24,873 nucleotides of DNA from a virus. The DNA lies in UHGV virus genome UHGV-0240820. One strand, 5' to 3'. A model generated the notes under the pieces. That model was not told the DNA's origin. It did no database searches and saw only the letters and a program-made list of their open reading frames with translations. Shown here in pieces: positions 3,660-24,873 of this stretch (positions are counted from its first letter, which is position 1; every line of letters starts with the position of its first letter). Both the position numbers and the translations under genes were made by a program.

Positions 3660-3736
3660 TGGCGTGGCATGCAGGATTCGAACCTGCGACCAACCGCTTA
3701 GAAGGCGGTTGCTCTGTCCAACTGAGCTAATGCCAC
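3660..3736 (-). tRNA. tRNA-Arg (anticodon UCU)
   Basis: Minus-strand 77-nt cloverleaf: acceptor GTGGCAT/ATGCCAC, D stem GCTC/GAGC, anticodon stem ACCGC/GCGGT with loop CTTCTAA, T arm GCAGG-TTCGAAT-CCTGC, discriminator G, encoded CCA. Differs from host argU at several positions (from memory), so it is phage-encoded. Confidence 0.85.
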
Positions 3737-12024: not shown

Positions 12025-12488
12025 TGATCGATGTTCAAATTATTCCCGCAACCGAAGAGCATCTTCAGATGATTTTGCCGGATGTTCGTCAGGCTGATAT
12101 TGACGAACTGTATGCGGTATCACTGATGACTACCGAAGATGCGCTGCGTGTTGGTCTGCGTACTGCGACTATGGCCTGGTCAGGATTTGCGAACGGAGAA
12201 CTGGTAACCATGTTTGGCGTATCTCCGGCGTCAATGATCGGTGGCAATGGTACGCCCTGGCTGGTCGGAACCAGCCGCATCGAAAAATATCAGAAGACAT
12301 TTCTTCGCCACTGCCGCCCTGTATTGCAGCAGATGCTGGCAGTTTATCCGCGCCTGGAAAACTATGTCGACGAGCGAAACCATGTTGCCAAAGCATGGCT
12401 GCACTGGCTTGGATTCAGGCTTGAAGAAGCCGCTCCTTATGGTGCTCTTGGTCTTAATTTCCACAGATTTCACATGGAGAGAAAATAA
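12024..12488 (+). CDS. internal virion protein candidate (gp13 position)
   Basis: 154 aa, translationally coupled (TGATG); position matches T7 gene 13. No motif recognised. Confidence 0.45.
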   Translation: MIDVQIIPATEEHLQMILPDVRQADIDELYAVSLMTTEDALRVGLRTATMAWSGFANGELVTMFGVSPASMIGGNGTPWLVGTSRIEKYQKTFLRHCRPVLQQMLAVYPRLENYVDERNHVAKAWLHWLGFRLEEAAPYGALGLNFHRFHMERK

Positions 12489-13054
12489 TGTGTAACCCAG
12501 CCATCGCTTTGGTTGCCGTCACAGTGGCATCCACAGCCGCGTCAATGTACAGCCAGAGCAAGCAGGCAAAATACCAGTCAGCCATAGCTGATCGGAATGC
12601 TGAAATTGCTGAAGCTCAGGCACAGGATTCAATCAATCGTGGGAATATTGAAGCGGATCAGCGTCGTCGTGAAATGCGTCAACGCTCAGGCACTGCGGCG
12701 GCCACTATGGGGGCTACCGGTGCGGAATTAAGTAGCGGAACAGCTCTTGACGTTTTTGCGGATAATGCTCAGTTCGGCACTCTTGATGCGTTAACGACAG
12801 TGAATAATGCTCAGCGTGAGGCATATGGGTATCAGGTTCAGGGAATGAATGCTCAGGCACAGGGGGCTGCTGCTCAGTCGGCTGCTAAATCATCGATGAC
12901 CAGCACTTTGTTAACGGCACCACTAAAAGCATACGGTGCATATAAGTTGGGTAGCGGAAGTATCAATCCGATTAGTAAGCAAGGAAACACGCCAATGTTA
13001 TCTAACTCAGGTTTTATGAATTCTGACTCCCGATTCAAAATAGGAGGTTATTGA
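12488..13054 (+). CDS. internal virion protein B-like (T7 gp14-like)
   Basis: 188 aa; N-terminus MCNPAIALVAVTVASTAAS resembles T7 gp14 (MCWAAAIPIAISGAQA, from memory); Ala/Gln-rich. Confidence 0.6.
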   Translation: MCNPAIALVAVTVASTAASMYSQSKQAKYQSAIADRNAEIAEAQAQDSINRGNIEADQRRREMRQRSGTAAATMGATGAELSSGTALDVFADNAQFGTLDALTTVNNAQREAYGYQVQGMNAQAQGAAAQSAAKSSMTSTLLTAPLKAYGAYKLGSGSINPISKQGNTPMLSNSGFMNSDSRFKIGGY

Positions 13055-20315: not shown

Positions 20316-20828
20316 CTATGCAGGCTTTTTGGATTTGTACGAATAATCCCACGGATAAACATTTCTACTAAGTGGAGCTGTATTCGTTCGTTCATGAAAT
20401 AATTTTGTGAAATTCAATACGGAATCCATCCAAACTTTTGCGTTAGCTTTGGTGTGTGCGGGCGGGTCCCAATAAGCTAGTAAGGCTGCATCTCTTATTT
20501 CATTGACTGCATATATGAGATATGCGTTACTGGTTGGTTTTGGCCTGTAATTTCCTTGTTCATCAATCAATCCATATGACCACTCATCCCAACACTGTTC
20601 AGTACATGAGTATGAATATGATGCATATTCACCAATATTGACATGAACCTTTCTGAGATGGAAGCCTAATACTTCGTCTGGTCTTTCAAAAAGAGTATCT
20701 TTTCCCAGATCAGGATGATGACCATGACGCCAGTGTTGTTTAAAAGCATCTTTTAGCGAAATCAGAAAGTCATCAGTTTTAAACTCACCAGTAGGTATAA
20801 CCTTCCCGCTATACTCACTCAAAAACAT
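20316..20828 (-). CDS. hypothetical protein (170 aa); candidate toxin/effector of a two-gene module
   Basis: Strong RBS (AGAGGA at 5 nt spacing). His cluster (HWRHGHH) and a Cys/Trp-rich segment (YSCTEQCWDEW). Start overlaps the upstream gene's 3' end by 14 nt. AT-rich. Confidence 0.55.
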   Translation of the reverse strand: MFLSEYSGKVIPTGEFKTDDFLISLKDAFKQHWRHGHHPDLGKDTLFERPDEVLGFHLRKVHVNIGEYASYSYSCTEQCWDEWSYGLIDEQGNYRPKPTSNAYLIYAVNEIRDAALLAYWDPPAHTKANAKVWMDSVLNFTKLFHERTNTAPLSRNVYPWDYSYKSKKPA

Positions 20829-21141
20829 CGAATTCCTCTTCCTTCATATGCGTTTCTAATGAGTTAAGCTGGCGGAAAGATATCTCTTTTGATTCTGCAG
20901 ATGAGAGCTTTTTTATCCGCTTGATATTCTTTGTGATAGGAATAGACATTGTATGCACATCAGCGGATGCTCTTGGCTTTGTGCTGATAAAAATATGGCG
21001 CAATGCCGCATTTTCACTATTGAACGAGCCAATAGCTGATTTACGTGCTACAACCTTACCAGTAAAAATACGACTCTTGCTACGCTTTGCATGAGTTCCG
21101 CTTCTTACCGGACCTCTCATCACGAATCCAAGTTTTGTCAT
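20815..21141 (-). CDS. hypothetical basic protein (108 aa); candidate partner (antitoxin/regulator?)
   Basis: GGAG RBS. Arg/Lys-rich N-terminal half and acidic C-terminus (HMKEEEFDVFE). First gene of the overlapping pair. Confidence 0.5.
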   Translation of the reverse strand: MTKLGFVMRGPVRSGTHAKRSKSRIFTGKVVARKSAIGSFNSENAALRHIFISTKPRASADVHTMSIPITKNIKRIKKLSSAESKEISFRQLNSLETHMKEEEFDVFE

Positions 21142-21270: not shown

Positions 21271-21927
21271 TCAGAAGAACCCTGCTTTGTCGTTGATGTA
21301 CTCCGCGTGCGTCTGGATATCACGCAGGCATTTGCTCACACCGACGATGTAGCAGAACATGGTGGTCAGTTCCGCCGCCGCGCCCGATACGTCGTGCCCG
21401 TCTTCCTGTAACTGGTTCAGCAGATTCATCAGCAGTGAGTTCTCCGTCAGGCCGAGAACACCAGACGGAGAATGAATCAGGCTGCGGTAGCCGGGCTTCA
21501 GCGGGGCACTGTATTCTTTTTTGTCTTCCAGCTTGATCGCCTCCATAATGGCGGGCATGAAGCCTGACAAGACCTTCTCCACTTTTGTTTCTTGTTGTCT
21601 TAAACGTTTCTCGCATTCAATGAAGTAGCGTCGCACCTGGCGACCTTTTTCGTTACGCTCGACCATCGCCAGCTCTTTGGCTGTATCAAGGGTGAGGTGG
21701 TACTCTTTGCGGTTGTGGCCGCCTCTACCAGATGTTTGCTTTCCCAAATTGGAAAGCAAAATATAGTCTTGATTTTCAATGAATTCGTATTCTGATATGC
21801 GATTTGTAATCCATGCTGCAAACACCTTTTTAACACCTAAAAAAGCGTGCAGATCGCGGGCATTACAAAGTAGGGCTGTTTCGTTAGATATAGTGCCGTT
21901 GAATACGGGGATGAGTTGAGCGTTCAT
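21271..21927 (-). CDS. phage antirepressor (AntA/Bro-N-type N-terminal domain plus C-terminal domain)
   Basis: N-terminal sequence ([12 protein letters not shown]...[32 protein letters not shown]) matches the conserved AntA-type antirepressor domain as I recall it. GGAG RBS. C-terminal 80 aa are paralogous to ORF 23077-23334. Confidence 0.75.
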
Positions 21928-22085
21928 GATGGCGTCTCCACTTAGCGAATTACATCACCACCGCTGAGACCAATCAGATGGTGGTGAACTGAACGGAGTT
22001 GGTCTTACCGGCCTAAGTGGTACCGGCGTCCTTTCGGACCCCCATTCAGCCCACCATAATTCTGGCATGACTGTGCTATACGCAT

Positions 22086-22108
22086 AAAAAAACCACGTCT
22101 GGCGTGGT
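22086..22108 (-). terminator. intrinsic terminator-like element (minus strand)
   Basis: On the minus strand: stem ACCACG/CGTGGT (22092-22097 / 22103-22108) followed by a T7 run (plus-strand A-run 22086-22092). Confidence 0.5.
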
Positions 22109-22200
22109 ATGCGCCACTTAGTAATCCGGGAGACCAATCCCGGCACTGGATTTTGCCAGTGCCCGATTACTATGGCACAAGAGGAGTGCGATGTAAATTT
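22086..22200 (-). ncRNA. structured non-coding leader or sRNA candidate
   Basis: No ATG on the minus strand across 22086-22200. Hairpins at 22126-22143 (6 bp) and 22142-22163 (8 bp) share two nucleotides. Ends in a terminator-like hairpin. Confidence 0.3.
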
Positions 22201-22326: not shown

Positions 22327-23055
22327 ATGGAAGTTTTCTGGATAGTTGTTGGTGTGGTTGCGGTGATTATTTACGTTATCAACCAGAACAAGACTAAGAT
22401 CTCTGATCGTACGGTCGTTAATCATAACAAAACGATAAAGACCGAAGATGGGGAGATAACGATTAATCGTACACAGGTGATAGAACACACCTCTACTCAG
22501 TTTCAAAAAACTGGAGGTAATGCGCCTAATATTTCCGCACCTCCTGCTTATGATAGTGCGGTAATCCAGACATATTATAAACAGCAGGAGTTAGCAAAAG
22601 AGAGGCAACTGATTCAGCCAAAGCCATTTACAGCAGAGCTTCCACATGGAGTGTCAACGCGTCCGGCATATCATGGAAGATTCCCTGGTGATGACACATC
22701 GTCTCAGTCACCTAAAAAAGCACCTCAGGCAGTATCAGAGCCAGCAAGAATACCTTCTGTATCGCCGTCAAAAGAAGAATCAGCTAACGAAGTTTCAAGT
22801 GCCCGCAAGCAGTGTTTGCGATGCAGAATAACCCTTCCATATGAAAAATTCAGGAAATCGTCAAAAAATCCAGATGGATTGACTAAGTGGTGTGCAAGGT
22901 GTCTCGATGGCCCAAAGAATACACGCCATATGAAGTGGTGCCCAATTTGTAATGTCCGCAGAAAACGAACCAGTTTTTACCCTAATAATCAAAATGCGGA
23001 TGGCTTAATGGCATGGTGCAAAACGTGCTGGGACGAGCACAAAGCGAAACGATAG
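22327..23055 (+). CDS. membrane-anchored protein with C-terminal tandem zinc-ribbon-like repeats (242 aa)
   Basis: N-terminal TM helix (FWIVVGVVAVIIYVI), Pro/Ser/Gln-rich linker, then two repeats of C-x2-C ... DGL ... WC-x2-C. GAGGA RBS. AT-rich. Followed by a terminator. Confidence 0.6.
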   Translation: MEVFWIVVGVVAVIIYVINQNKTKISDRTVVNHNKTIKTEDGEITINRTQVIEHTSTQFQKTGGNAPNISAPPAYDSAVIQTYYKQQELAKERQLIQPKPFTAELPHGVSTRPAYHGRFPGDDTSSQSPKKAPQAVSEPARIPSVSPSKEESANEVSSARKQCLRCRITLPYEKFRKSSKNPDGLTKWCARCLDGPKNTRHMKWCPICNVRRKRTSFYPNNQNADGLMAWCKTCWDEHKAKR

Positions 23056-23079
23056 GCCGCTCTTGCGGCCTTTTCTTTA
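23054..23079 (+). terminator. intrinsic terminator
   Basis: AGGCCGC, loop TCTT, GCGGCCT, followed by TTTCTTTAT; nearly identical to the terminator at 20050-20074. Confidence 0.7.
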
Positions 23080-23334
23080 TCTGGTTTGCTTTCGTAATTG
23101 TTCGGCACAATAGTCGAGATGTGTTTGCAGATCCTGCATAGACATCTGTGAGCTGGTGACGTAGTTAATCAGTGCAGTCAGTTCGGCAAGTGGGCCATCG
23201 ACATTAAATCCATCCTTATCGAGATCCCGGAGTAATTTCATCAAGTGCGATCCCTCCACCAGTGACCTGACGCCTCCCGGCGTGTGAATCCTTTCGGTAA
23301 ATCCGTCTTCCAGTGGATAGTGATACTGCTGCAT
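23077..23334 (-). CDS. stand-alone antirepressor C-terminal-domain paralog (85 aa)
   Basis: About 50% identical by eye to the C-terminal 80 aa of the antirepressor at 21271-21927. Start placed at the internal ATG 23334 (GGAGAAG RBS); the longer ORF to 23457 lacks an RBS and spans the operator dyad. Confidence 0.5.
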   Translation of the reverse strand: MQQYHYPLEDGFTERIHTPGGVRSLVEGSHLMKLLRDLDKDGFNVDGPLAELTALINYVTSSQMSMQDLQTHLDYCAEQLRKQTR

Positions 23335-23410
23335 CTTATCTTCTCCATGCAATAACTGTATGTTTATACAGTAACAAATAATTTGTTTGCTATCCAGCAC
23401 GTTTTGCAAA

Positions 23411-23425
23411 TTACCCGAAAGGTAA
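23411..23425. promoter_or_regulatory. dyad TTACCCGAAAGGTAA (operator-like)
   Basis: Lies between the divergent antirepressor-paralog and tail-spike starts. Confidence 0.45.
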
Positions 23426-23529
23426 TATCTATTGGTATTTATAGTCTTTTTATCCATATATGGTTTTTCAGGTAATAGAATAACCAGATATGCGGCGCAA
23501 CGGGTGCTGCGACTATCTGGAGATTTAAC

Positions 23530-24786
23530 ATGACGGTCTCAACCGAAGTTGACCACAACGAATACACCGGTAACGGCGTTACGACATCGTTTCCGTATAC
23601 TTTTCGAATTTTCAGAAAATCAGACCTGGTTGTTCAGGTGTCTGATCTGAACGGAAACGTAACAGAATTGGTCCTGGATACCGGTTATACGGTAACTGGG
23701 GCGGGCACTTATAGTGGCGGTTCTGTGGTTCTTCCGTCTCCGCTTGCTACTGGATGGCGAATTACGATAGATCGTGTGCTTGATGTAGTGCAGGACACAG
23801 ACCTTCGCAATCAGGGAAAATTTTTCCCCGAAGTGCATGAAGATGCCTTTGACTACCTGACGATGCTGATCCAGCAATGTTTTGGGTGGTTCAGACGTGC
23901 ATTGATGAAACCATCTTTGCTTGCAAAATATTACGATGCAAAGCAAAACAAAATTTCTAACCTTGCAGATCCATCATTTGAGCAGGACGCTGTAAATAAT
24001 CGCTCAATGCGTAATTATGTCGATGCTGCAATCGCCGGAGTTGTTGGTGGTTTTGGTTGGTTTATTCAGTATGGTTCTGGGGCTGTGTACCGAACGTTCC
24101 AGGATAAAATGCGTGATGCTATTAGCCCCAAAGATTTTGGAGCTGTTGGTGATGGTATAAATGACGATTCCACTGCAATAAGCGCGTGCCTTGAAGCCTC
24201 ATCTCCAGGTTATAAAATTGACGGATTAGGGCTTACTTTTAAAGTATCAACTCTTCCGGATGTCAGTCGATTTAAAAATGCTCGTTTTTTATTTGAGAGA
24301 ATACCGGGCCAGCCTCTTTTTTATGCTTCTGAAGATTTTATCCAGGGAGAGTTATTTAAAATTACAGATACACCGTGGTACAACGCCTGGACGCAGGATA
24401 AAACGTTTGTATATGACAATGTCATCTATGCGCCTTTTATGGCTGGAGACCGCCATGGTGTAAATAACCTCCATGTTGCATGGGTTCGCTCAGGAGATGA
24501 CGGGAAGACCTGGACAACGCCGGAATGGCTTACAGATTTACATGAAAACTATCCCACAGTTAACTATCACTGCATGAGTATGGGGGTTGTCAGAAATCGC
24601 CTTTTTGCTGTAATTGAGACGCGGACCGTGAGAGGAAATAAACTGCAGGTTGCAGAGTTGTGGGATCGCCCAATGAGTCGCAGCCTTCGCGTTTATGGTG
24701 GTATAACGAAAGCAGCAAATCAGCAAGTCGCTTATATTCGCATTACTGATCACGGATTGAACCGCCCCGGGAATCCTGGAGACTAA
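23530..24786 (+). CDS. tail spike/fiber protein, 3'-disrupted by IS insertion
   Basis: GGAG RBS. N-terminal ~140 aa resemble the T7 gp17 particle-binding domain (from memory). DFGAVGDGINDD motif and an Asp-box SGDDGKTW (24491-24514). From ~24758 the reading frame runs into IS terminal sequence; the last ~9 codons and the stop are IS-derived. Confidence 0.7.
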   Translation: MTVSTEVDHNEYTGNGVTTSFPYTFRIFRKSDLVVQVSDLNGNVTELVLDTGYTVTGAGTYSGGSVVLPSPLATGWRITIDRVLDVVQDTDLRNQGKFFPEVHEDAFDYLTMLIQQCFGWFRRALMKPSLLAKYYDAKQNKISNLADPSFEQDAVNNRSMRNYVDAAIAGVVGGFGWFIQYGSGAVYRTFQDKMRDAISPKDFGAVGDGINDDSTAISACLEASSPGYKIDGLGLTFKVSTLPDVSRFKNARFLFERIPGQPLFYASEDFIQGELFKITDTPWYNAWTQDKTFVYDNVIYAPFMAGDRHGVNNLHVAWVRSGDDGKTWTTPEWLTDLHENYPTVNYHCMSMGVVRNRLFAVIETRTVRGNKLQVAELWDRPMSRSLRVYGGITKAANQQVAYIRITDHGLNRPGNPGD

Positions 24787-24873
24787 ACTTCCTGAGAAAG
24801 AGGTAAACAGGATGACTAAAAATACTCGTTTTTCCCCTGAAGTCCGTCAACGGGCAGTCCGTATGGTTCTGGA
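24758..24873 (+). mobile_element. IS3-family insertion sequence, left end (IS629-like), continues beyond the window
   Basis: Terminal sequence TGAACCGCCCCGGGAATCCTGGAGACTAAACTTCC followed by an OrfA start; identified from memory, not by search. Confidence 0.65.
24812..24873 (+). CDS. IS3-family transposase OrfA, N-terminal fragment (truncated by window)
   Basis: MTKNTRFSPEVRQRAVRMVL matches the N-terminus of IS629/IS1203-type OrfA as I recall it. AAGAGG RBS upstream. Confidence 0.7.
   Translation, partial: MTKNTRFSPEVRQRAVRMVL

What the first reader, a model, noticed from the sequence alone, without database searches (positions are those of the whole stretch)
23530..24873. Tail spike truncated by an IS3-family insertion; Asp-box suggests a sialidase-like receptor-destroying domain
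The spike has a T7 gp17-like N-terminal adaptor, a DFGAVGDGINDD motif and an S-x-D-x-G-x-T-W Asp-box at 24491-24514. It is interrupted at about codon 409 by the IS left end, which supplies the last ~9 codons and the stop. The segment around VNYHCMSMGV...WDRPMSRSL resembles phage endo-N-acetylneuraminidases as I recall them, so the ancestral phage may have targeted a polysialic-acid capsule. The prophage is probably defective for adsorption unless the rest of the gene lies beyond the IS.
Basis: partly seen in the sequence, partly recalled or inferred. Interest (0 to 1): 0.6.

Follow-up and report, generated by a model that had tools for sequence, protein, structure and literature searches.

The report
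IS-disrupted K1 endosialidase tailspike, Uetakevirus prophage
This is the front 40% of a well-known phage tail-spike enzyme that digests the polysialic-acid (K1) capsule of E. coli, cut off by a common jumping gene (IS629) in a gut-metagenome prophage: real, but ordinary prophage decay.

Summary
ORF 23530..24786 (418 aa) carries the first 410 codons of a 1039-aa endosialidase tailspike. Pfam finds End_N_terminal, the first 112 of 367 positions of End_beta_propel, and the start of End_beta_barrel. Residues 205-410 are 69% identical, without gaps, to the crystallised K1F enzyme endoNF (E 4e-100). The intact allele occurs in 72 complete E. coli genomes, including K1 strains IAI39, CE10 and IHE3034. 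It is 99.5% identical to the tailspike of the published temperate Uetakevirus vB_EcoP_ZX5, and residues 193-1039 are 95% identical to the CUS-3 endosialidase. From base 24758 the sequence is the exact left terminus of an IS629/IS3411-type IS3-family element. The element adds 8 foreign codons and a stop. Four of five catalytic residues, the second Asp-box, the stalk and the C-terminal chaperone domain all lie beyond the break, so the product should be inactive. The host element is an epsilon15/phiV10-like prophage, not a T7-like one. Its N-terminal adaptor is only distantly related to T7 gp17. The window is a metagenome contig that stops inside the IS, so simple insertion versus IS-mediated deletion remains unresolved. 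Interest is low.

The parts
23519..23522 (+). GGAG ribosome-binding site 7 nt upstream of the tailspike ATG
   Evidence: read directly from the sequence
23530..24786 (+). Truncated tailspike ORF, 418 aa: 410 native codons, then 8 IS-encoded codons (NRPGNPGD) and TAA
   Evidence: One amino-acid difference (V57G) from the IAI39 allele in the first 410 aa. DNA 99.9% identical to the best intact alleles.
23530..24141 (+). N-terminal particle-binding adaptor (aa 1-204), epsilon15/phiV10 type; distant relative of the T7 gp17 N-terminal domain
   Evidence: aa 1-166 are 67% identical to the phiV10 tail fibre N-terminus. aa 1-180 match the Dpo31 tailspike N-terminus in PDB at E 4e-32. 80 IMG/VR loci carry the same adaptor at >=92% identity, fused to about 20 different C-terminal modules. 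Pfam PF03906 is sub-threshold. hhalign gives 72.6% probability.
24133..24168 (+). DFGAVGDGINDD motif (aa 202-213), at the module-exchange point between the adaptor and the receptor-binding part
   Evidence: Similarity to CUS-3 and K1F endosialidases begins at aa 193-205. Similarity to other Uetakevirus spikes ends at aa 203-260.
24142..24342 (+). Endosialidase N-terminal extension domain (aa 205-271), complete
   Evidence: Pfam PF12218, 1-67 of 67 positions, E 1.5e-32
24343..24678 (+). First part of the catalytic six-bladed beta-propeller (aa 272-383): profile positions 1-112 of 367 only
   Evidence: Pfam PF12217, E 1.1e-70. The intact allele covers 1-367.
24454..24456 (+). His309 codon, equivalent to endoNF catalytic His350; the only one of five key catalytic residues retained
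   Evidence: alignment to 3gvl; residue list from PMC12632334
24490..24513 (+). Asp-box SGDDGKTW (aa 321-328), first of the two in the intact enzyme
   Evidence: The second (SSDLGTSW, aa 576-583 of the IAI39 allele) lies beyond the break.
24676..24757 (+). Start of the beta-barrel (polySia-binding) insertion domain: 29 of 83 profile positions, then cut
   Evidence: Pfam PF12195
24758..24873 (+). Left end of an IS629/IS3411/IS1203-type IS3-family element, same orientation as the spike gene. Includes an imperfect terminal inverted repeat of about 25 bp (24758-24782). The window ends inside it.
   Evidence: 116/116 identical to an IS3-family copy and 115/116 to IS629-named copies. The full 1310-bp copy in IAI39 has matching inverted ends TGAACCGCCCCGGG.
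24813..24873 (+). First 20 codons of IS orfA (MTKNTRFSPEVRQRAVRMVL...), cut by the window end
   Evidence: gene called at the same place in L002; RefSeq annotation of the 99%-identical copies

Best explanation
The region holds the 5' 39% (410 of 1039 codons) of the single tailspike gene of an epsilon15/phiV10-like (Uetakevirus) prophage of E. coli.

How the intact spike works:
- The N-terminal adaptor (aa 1 to about 200) docks the trimeric spike to the tail.
- The endosialidase part (GH58 type) comprises an N-terminal extension, a six-bladed beta-propeller with an inserted beta-barrel, and a stalk. It binds and cleaves the alpha-2,8-polysialic acid K1 capsule so the virion can reach the cell surface.
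- A C-terminal S74 chaperone domain drives trimer folding and then cleaves itself off.

What happened here:
- An IS629-type IS3-family element transposed into codon 410, inside the beta-barrel insert. This fuses 8 foreign codons and a stop.
- The product keeps the adaptor, the N-terminal extension, about 30% of the propeller, one Asp-box and His350(309).
- It lacks R549, E581, R596, R647, the second Asp-box, the stalk and the chaperone domain.
- It should therefore neither fold into a trimer nor cleave polysialic acid, and the prophage cannot make adsorbing virions.

Shown: the identity of both partners, the exact junction, what is missing, and the intactness of the other virion genes in the window.

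Inferred: loss of function; recency of the event; that the window end is an assembly break in a repeat.
For: Endosialidase identity:
- Pfam End_N_terminal, End_beta_propel and End_beta_barrel.
- endoNF crystal-structure chains at E 4e-100; 143/206 identical without gaps.
- The intact 1039-aa allele in IAI39 has all five endosialidase domains, including End_tail_spike and Peptidase_S74.
- That allele aligns end to end with endoNF, with R549, E581, R596 and R647 conserved at aa 515, 547, 562 and 613. The residue list comes from PMC12632334.
- It is 99.5% identical to the vB_EcoP_ZX5 tailspike, 95% to CUS-3 siaK1 over aa 193-1039, and 62% to K1F gp17. The ZX5 paper describes the same three-part spike.

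Prophage type:
- 82% of the window matches phage EC.W1-9 at 97.6%; 50-57% matches phiV10 and TL-2011b.
- 18 virion genes are collinear and full length against EC.W1-9.
- Gene order in relatives is spike, lysis cassette, integrase.

IS:
- The exact terminus TG... abuts spike sequence with a 1-nt overlap.
- RefSeq names the matching copies IS629/IS3411.
- IS629 is present in 3553 of 5426 E. coli genomes.
- 62% of IS629 copies in O157 lie in prophages, and the element makes 3-4 bp target duplications (PMC3271280).

Reality of the junction:
- The identical 418-aa product was called on 4-5 contigs from ENA and JGI/IMG.
- ENA contig k127_42761 ends exactly 126 nt (k-1) into the IS. That is the signature of a repeat-induced assembly break.
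Against: - The right end of the IS and the distal spike fragment were not found anywhere. No target-site duplication could be shown, and a simple insertion is not proven.
- No complete E. coli genome carries the same junction.
- Loss of activity and of adsorption is inferred from homology, not measured.
- The host's capsule type is unknown, because the source is a metagenome contig.
Confidence: 0.93

Rival explanations
1. IS-mediated deletion or rearrangement rather than a simple insertion. The IS now joins the spike 5' fragment to unrelated DNA. The distal 629 codons, and possibly the lysis cassette and integrase that follow in relatives, are gone.
For: - No distal junction (IS right end, 0-6 nt, then the continuing spike sequence) was found in viral, metagenome or representative genome contigs.
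- The homologous prophage region of IAI39 holds three IS629-type copies and fragments within 17 kb, and the copy examined has no matching flanking duplication. IS-driven scrambling of this prophage type therefore occurs.
- In O157, only 21 of 47 IS629 sites show a target duplication.
Against: - The searched collections do not demonstrably include the source sample's other contigs, so absence is weak evidence.
- The 5' fragment is 99.9% identical to intact alleles, and the other virion genes are intact. This fits a very recent single event.
Confidence: 0.2
2. The spike-IS junction is a metagenome assembly chimera, and the real gene is intact.
For: The window is a short-read metagenome contig that ends in a multi-copy repeat. 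No isolate genome shows the same junction.
Against: - The join falls exactly at the first base of the IS terminal inverted repeat, with only 1 nt shared. That is what transposition gives, not k-mer mis-joining at k=127.
- The same 418-aa ORF was called on 4-5 contigs in two data sources.
Confidence: 0.03
3. The truncated protein retains a function. For example, the adaptor domain might occupy tail hubs of related Uetakeviruses, or the spike function might be supplied in trans by a co-resident endosialidase prophage.
For: - The complete adaptor and N-terminal extension are retained, with the native start and ribosome-binding site.
- K1 strains often carry a second endosialidase gene of CUS-3 type.
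Against: - The trimerising stalk and the S74 chaperone domain are missing.
- The CUS-3 spike has a P22-type head-binding domain (PF09008), not this adaptor, so it should not fit a Uetakevirus tail.
- The allele is rare: 4-5 contigs, against 72 complete genomes and 19 IMG/VR contigs with intact genes.
Confidence: 0.03

Closest known systems
Tailspike (ORF7, QTH80017.1) of temperate Escherichia phage vB_EcoP_ZX5, genus Uetakevirus (MW722083; PMC9782041)
   Same: The intact allele of this gene is 99.5% identical over all 1039 aa. It has the same genome position: antirepressor region, spike, holins, endolysin, integrase. It has the same three-part architecture.
   Different: The window copy is cut at codon 410 by an IS. 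The region between the 283-aa ORF and the spike (about 20.2-23.5 kb) differs from ZX5.
CUS-3 endosialidase tailspike siaK1 (CP000711), P22-like K1 prophage
   Same: 95% identical over aa 193-1039 of the intact allele, that is, the same endosialidase module.
   Different: The N-terminus is a P22-type head-binding domain (PF09008), not the epsilon15-type adaptor. The phage backbone is different.
EndoNF, gp17 of lytic phage K1F (PDB 1V0E, 3GVJ/K/L, 3JU4; chaperone domain 3GW6)
   Same: 69% identical over window aa 205-410 and 62% over the whole catalytic part. The fold domains, Asp-boxes and catalytic residues are conserved in the intact allele.
   Different: K1F uses a genuine T7 gp17-type N-terminus. 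BLASTP of the two N-termini finds nothing. The window copy lacks everything after endoNF residue 451.
phiV10 / epsilon15 tail fibre (PhiV10p25, epsilon15 gp20)
   Same: The N-terminal adaptor is 67% identical over aa 1-166. The phage type and gene order are the same.
   Different: The receptor-binding part is unrelated (O-antigen specific). In phiV10 an O-acetyltransferase gene follows the spike.
IS629 / IS3411 / IS1203 (IS3 family, 1310 bp)
   Same: 99-100% identity over the 116 nt present. It has the TG... terminal repeat and the orfA start. Its known preference for prophages also fits.
   Different: Only the left 116 nt are in the window. The frameshifted orfAB, the right end and the target duplication cannot be seen.

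Membership tests
Phage endosialidase (endo-N-acetylneuraminidase, GH58-type tailspike) | N-terminal extension domain (Pfam PF12218) | tested here: met
   aa 205-271, 67 of 67 profile positions, 111.5 bits against a cutoff of 26.3
Phage endosialidase (endo-N-acetylneuraminidase, GH58-type tailspike) | Complete six-bladed catalytic beta-propeller (PF12217) with inserted beta-barrel (PF12195) | tested here: not met
   The window copy has propeller positions 1-112 of 367 and barrel positions 1-29 of 83. The intact allele in IAI39 has both complete. The window copy is therefore a gene fragment of a family member, not a functional member.
Phage endosialidase (endo-N-acetylneuraminidase, GH58-type tailspike) | Catalytic residues H350, R549, E581, R596, R647 (endoNF numbering; PMC12632334) | tested here: not met
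   Only H350 (His309) is encoded before the break. The other four map to aa 515, 547, 562 and 613 of the intact allele, where they are conserved.
Phage endosialidase (endo-N-acetylneuraminidase, GH58-type tailspike) | Two Asp-boxes (S-x-D-x-G-x-T/S-W) | tested here: inconclusive
   One is present (aa 321-328). The second (aa 576-583 of the intact allele) lies beyond the break.
Phage endosialidase (endo-N-acetylneuraminidase, GH58-type tailspike) | Stalk domain (PF12219) and self-cleaving C-terminal chaperone domain (Peptidase_S74, PF13884) | tested here: not met
   Absent from the window ORF. Present at aa 722-876 and 877-937 of the intact allele.
Phage endosialidase (endo-N-acetylneuraminidase, GH58-type tailspike) | Cleavage of alpha-2,8-polysialic acid | not testable with these tools
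   Needs an enzyme assay on colominic acid or K1 cells.
IS3 family, IS629/IS3411/IS1203 group | Terminal inverted repeat starting 5'-TG, and near-identity to named copies | tested here: met
   TGAACCGCCCCGGGAATCCTGGAGA at 24758-24782, matching the right-end repeat of the 1310-bp IAI39 copy with 2 mismatches. 115-116 of 116 nt match annotated IS3-family/IS629 copies.
IS3 family, IS629/IS3411/IS1203 group | orfA-orfB with programmed -1 frameshift and a DDE (rve) transposase | not testable with these tools
   Only 20 codons of orfA are in the window. The 99%-identical IAI39 copy is annotated 'IS3 family transposase, programmed frameshift'.
IS3 family, IS629/IS3411/IS1203 group | 3-4 bp target-site duplication flanking the element | not testable with these tools
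   The right end is not in the window and was not found in the public collections searched. The expected size comes from PMC3271280.
Phage_T7_tail (PF03906) N-terminal tail-fibre adaptor | Score above the Pfam gathering threshold | tested here: not met
   13.3 bits against 25.2, covering only aa 135-161. BLASTP against a K1F-type N-terminus finds nothing significant.
Phage_T7_tail (PF03906) N-terminal tail-fibre adaptor | Profile-level homology over the whole domain | tested here: inconclusive
   8 of 10 diverse homologues of the adaptor give PF03906 hits: three span nearly the whole domain at matching positions, one of them above the cutoff (P0105, 27.6 bits), and five cover short segments only. 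hhalign of the adaptor profile against T7/K1F-type N-termini gives 72.6% probability, E 3e-5, over 136 columns. The single-sequence AlphaFold model was unusable, pLDDT 37.
Uetakevirus (epsilon15/phiV10-like) prophage | Collinear virion module and spike position | tested here: met

The most novel reading that the evidence does not exclude
The IS629 insertion might be a selected disarming event rather than neutral decay. A K1-encapsulated lysogen could benefit from silencing a capsule-degrading enzyme that is released on spontaneous induction. Alternatively, the retained adaptor-only fragment could interfere with assembly of incoming related Uetakeviruses. Nothing here excludes either idea. The rarity of the allele and the absence of recurrent independent insertions argue against them.
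Probability: 0.03. Interest if true: 0.4.

Novelty: already known. Interest (0 to 1): 0.12.

Why it matters
It matters little beyond correct annotation.

- The gene should be labelled as an IS629-disrupted pseudogene of a K1-specific endosialidase tailspike in a Uetakevirus prophage.
- The contig end should be read as a repeat-induced assembly break.
- The locus illustrates two textbook points. The same endosialidase module is grafted onto T7-type, P22-type and epsilon15-type adaptors at a joint just upstream of the DFGAVGDG motif. IS629 preferentially lands in prophages.
- Intact alleles (ZX5-like) could be useful as K1-capsule depolymerases. This truncated copy is not.

Tried and rejected
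1. Search for the source or a longer contig. The proximal junction was searched as an exact pattern in genome, metagenome and viral contigs, with no hit.

2. Search for the distal junction. IS right end, N{0,6}, then the continuing spike sequence was searched in viral, metagenome and genome contigs, with no hit.

3. Search with the C-terminal 629 aa. It found only CUS-3-type and other full-length spikes, plus many contig-end partials. There was no IS-flanked distal fragment.

4. Exact-protein look-up. It gave 4-5 contigs, but all similar and none reading through the IS.

5. Single-sequence AlphaFold of the adaptor (aa 1-204), to test T7 gp17 likeness by fold. The model was unusable (pLDDT 37), so no fold search was run.

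6. Considered CUS-3 as the host prophage. Rejected, because the backbone is epsilon15/phiV10-like and the adaptor is not the P22 head-binding domain.

7. Considered a pectate-lyase-type beta-helix depolymerase because of the DFGAVGDG motif. Rejected: PF12708 scores only 16.6 bits over 21 residues, whereas the endosialidase domains score 111-239 bits.

8. PADLOC scan of the accessory ORFs found no defence-system hits.

9. The association of intact alleles with K1 capsule genes across genomes was not tested formally, because no neuS query sequence was at hand.

Full report
**What is in the sequence**

ORF 23530..24786 (+) encodes 418 aa and is preceded by GGAG at 23519-23522. The DFGAVGDGINDD motif is aa 202-213 (24133-24168). 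It is the only S-x-D-x-G-x-[TS]-W match in all six frames of the window, where composition predicts 0.02.

From 24758 the sequence reads TGAACCGCCCCGGGAATCCTGGAGA... It is 116/116 identical to an annotated IS3-family copy. It is 115/116 identical to copies that RefSeq names 'IS3-like element IS629 family transposase' or 'IS3411 family'.

**Identity of the protein**

Pfam gives three endosialidase domains:
- End_N_terminal, aa 205-271, complete, E 1.5e-32.
- End_beta_propel, aa 272-383, profile positions 1-112 of 367, E 1.1e-70.
- End_beta_barrel, aa 383-411, positions 1-29 of 83.

The best solved relatives are the K1F endosialidase endoNF chains 1V0E and 3GVJ/K/L (E 4e-100). The match is 143/206 identical without a gap. 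A pectate-lyase-like reading of the DFGAVGDG motif is not supported: PF12708 gives 16.6 bits over 21 residues.

**The intact allele**

72 of 5426 complete E. coli genomes match bases 23400-24758 at 99.1-99.9%, and every match stops exactly at the IS.

In IAI39 the gene is 1039 aa, annotated 'endosialidase catalytic beta-propeller domain-containing protein'. It has all five endosialidase Pfam domains, including End_tail_spike (722-876) and the Peptidase_S74 chaperone domain (877-937).

It aligns end to end with endoNF. The catalytic residues listed in PMC12632334 are H350, R549, E581, R596 and R647. They map to H309, R515, E547, R562 and R613 and are conserved.

The window fragment differs from IAI39 by one residue (V57G) in 410.

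In the phage collection:
- the intact allele is 99.5% identical to the tailspike of the isolated temperate phage vB_EcoP_ZX5;
- it is 95% identical to the CUS-3 endosialidase siaK1 over aa 193-1039;
- it is about 62% identical to K1F gp17.

The ZX5 paper describes the same architecture. Carriers include strains known to be K1: CE10 (titled O7:K1), and IAI39 and IHE3034 (K1 status from general knowledge).

**The junction**

- The intact gene reads CAC GGA TTA TTT GCT...
- The window reads CAC GGA TT|G AAC CGC CCC....
- Spike identity ends at 24757/24758 and the IS terminus (TG...) starts at 24758, with one shared T.
- Codon 410 stays Leu. The IS adds NRPGNPGD and TAA.
- IS orfA starts at 24813.

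The 99%-identical copy in IAI39 is 1310 bp, with imperfect inverted ends of about 25 bp. IS629 makes 3-4 bp target duplications, and in O157 62% of its copies lie in prophages. IS1203 and IS3411 are isoforms of it (PMC3271280). The element occurs in 3553 of 5426 complete E. coli genomes.

**Is the junction real?**

The window corresponds to a human-gut metagenome contig: ENA ERZ917825, run ERR1190736, contig k127_42761. The project, PRJEB12123, is used in papers on obesity cohorts.

That contig ends exactly 126 nt (k-1 for k=127) into the IS. This is what a repeat-induced break in a de Bruijn assembly looks like. The window end is therefore an assembly limit, not a biological end.

The same 418-aa product was called on 4-5 contigs in ENA and JGI/IMG. 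A join at the first base of the IS inverted repeat with only 1 nt of overlap is the mark of transposition, not of a chimera.

**Host element**

The window is the virion module of an epsilon15/phiV10-like (Uetakevirus) prophage:
- 82% of it matches phage EC.W1-9 at 97.6%, and 50-57% matches phiV10, TL-2011b and the O157 typing phages.
- All 18 genes from small terminase to the 283-aa ORF are collinear and full length against EC.W1-9.
- In relatives the spike is followed by holins, endolysin, spanin-like gene and integrase.

The spike is thus the only visibly damaged virion gene in the window. Its 5' part is almost mutation-free, so I infer a recent event.

**The 'T7 gp17-like' adaptor**

aa 1-166 are 67% identical to the phiV10 tail fibre N-terminus. 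That record's annotation calls it similar to epsilon15 gp20. aa 1-180 match the Dpo31 tailspike N-terminus in PDB.

The family is very large: 26,184 representatives at E<=1e-3. In 80 IMG/VR loci the same adaptor (>=92% identical) is fused to about 20 different C-terminal modules. Nineteen of those are intact 1039-aa endosialidases, and none carries an IS.

Evidence on the T7 relationship is mixed:
- The window protein's Pfam Phage_T7_tail score is below threshold, 13.3 vs 25.2 bits.
- BLASTP against a K1F-type N-terminus finds nothing.
- 8 of 10 diverse homologues give PF03906 hits. Three span nearly the whole domain at matching positions, one of them above the cutoff; five cover short segments only.
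- A profile-profile comparison gives 72.6% probability over 136 columns.

The adaptor is therefore probably a distant relative of the T7 gp17 N-terminal domain. Its immediate family is the epsilon15/phiV10 type, and the phage is not T7-like.

**Consequence**

This part is inferred. The product lacks:
- four of the five catalytic residues;
- about 70% of the propeller and most of the beta-barrel;
- the second Asp-box;
- the trimeric stalk;
- the chaperone domain, which in endosialidases is needed for trimer folding (established knowledge; Schwarzer 2009 and Schulz 2010, cited).

The related phages examined show one spike gene in this module. The prophage should therefore not produce adsorbing particles. 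Finding the distal fragment behind the IS would not change that.

**What remains open**

It is unresolved whether the event is a simple insertion or an IS-mediated deletion or rearrangement. Neither the proximal junction nor a modelled distal junction was found in representative genomes, JGI metagenomes or IMG/VR. A protein search with the distal 629 aa gave no IS-flanked fragment.

IAI39 shows that this prophage type can accumulate several IS629 copies and rearrangements.

**Verdict**

The family, the module exchange and the IS are all known and already annotated. Interest is low.

Noticed in passing
window 21977-22061 (-) and 22086-22162 (-), upstream of 21271-21927 (-): Rfam hits above gathering score to C4 antisense RNA (61.2 bits) and the isrK Hfq-binding sRNA (67.7 bits). 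They lie side by side just upstream of an AntA-type antirepressor gene (Pfam PF08346). This looks like a P1/P7-style antisense-controlled antirepressor (immI-like) module inside a Uetakevirus prophage.
   Followed up: partly
window 3660-3736 (-): tRNA-Arg (anticodon TCT) in a roughly 1.4-kb stretch between the large terminase and portal genes, next to a 140-aa ORF of unknown function (phrog_4846). The O157 typing phages 9 and 10 annotate a tRNA-Arg in the matching region.
   Followed up: partly
window 20316-20828 (-) and 20815-21141 (-): Two overlapping ORFs of 170 aa and 108 aa. The 170-aa one gives a sub-threshold YafO-toxin hit (19.7 vs 25 bits). They could be a toxin-antitoxin-like moron pair. 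There is no PADLOC hit, and both fall in PHROGs of unknown function.
   Followed up: partly
window 22327-23055 (+), hairpin 23054-23071: 242-aa ORF (phrog_6762, unknown function). Its Cys-rich C-terminal 45 aa resemble the zinc-binding region of endonuclease VII, Lar-like and HNH phage proteins. It is followed directly by a strong terminator-like hairpin.
   Followed up: partly
window 12488-13054 (+): This 188-aa virion-module ORF is only 63% identical to its EC.W1-9 counterpart, whereas all flanking genes are 93-100% identical. It is a small mosaic replacement inside an otherwise conserved module.
   Followed up: no
window 23080-23334 (-): 85-aa ORF just upstream of, and divergent from, the spike. 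It is 100% identical to the EC.W1-9 homologue and about 40% identical to the C-terminal part of antirepressor proteins (phrog_450; weak anti-repressor phrog_1760). It is the counterpart of phiV10 p24, which that record annotates as similar to epsilon15 p19.
   Followed up: partly
protein clusters around the spike (no window coordinates); L003-L005, L009, L014, L018, L032: Hundreds of 'partial' endosialidase or 'peptidase S74' proteins of 150-660 aa in draft E. coli assemblies, and eight IMG/VR contigs, end inside this gene. A likely cause, not tested, is that many K1 strains carry two endosialidase modules about 95% identical (CUS-3 type and Uetakevirus type), which breaks short-read assemblies there.
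   Followed up: partly
L001 (E. coli IAI39, NC_011750.1:2747403-2764761): The homologous IAI39 prophage keeps an intact spike. Within 17 kb it also carries three IS629/IS3411-type copies or fragments, further IS3 fragments and a group II intron reverse transcriptase, which interrupt neighbouring genes.
   Followed up: no
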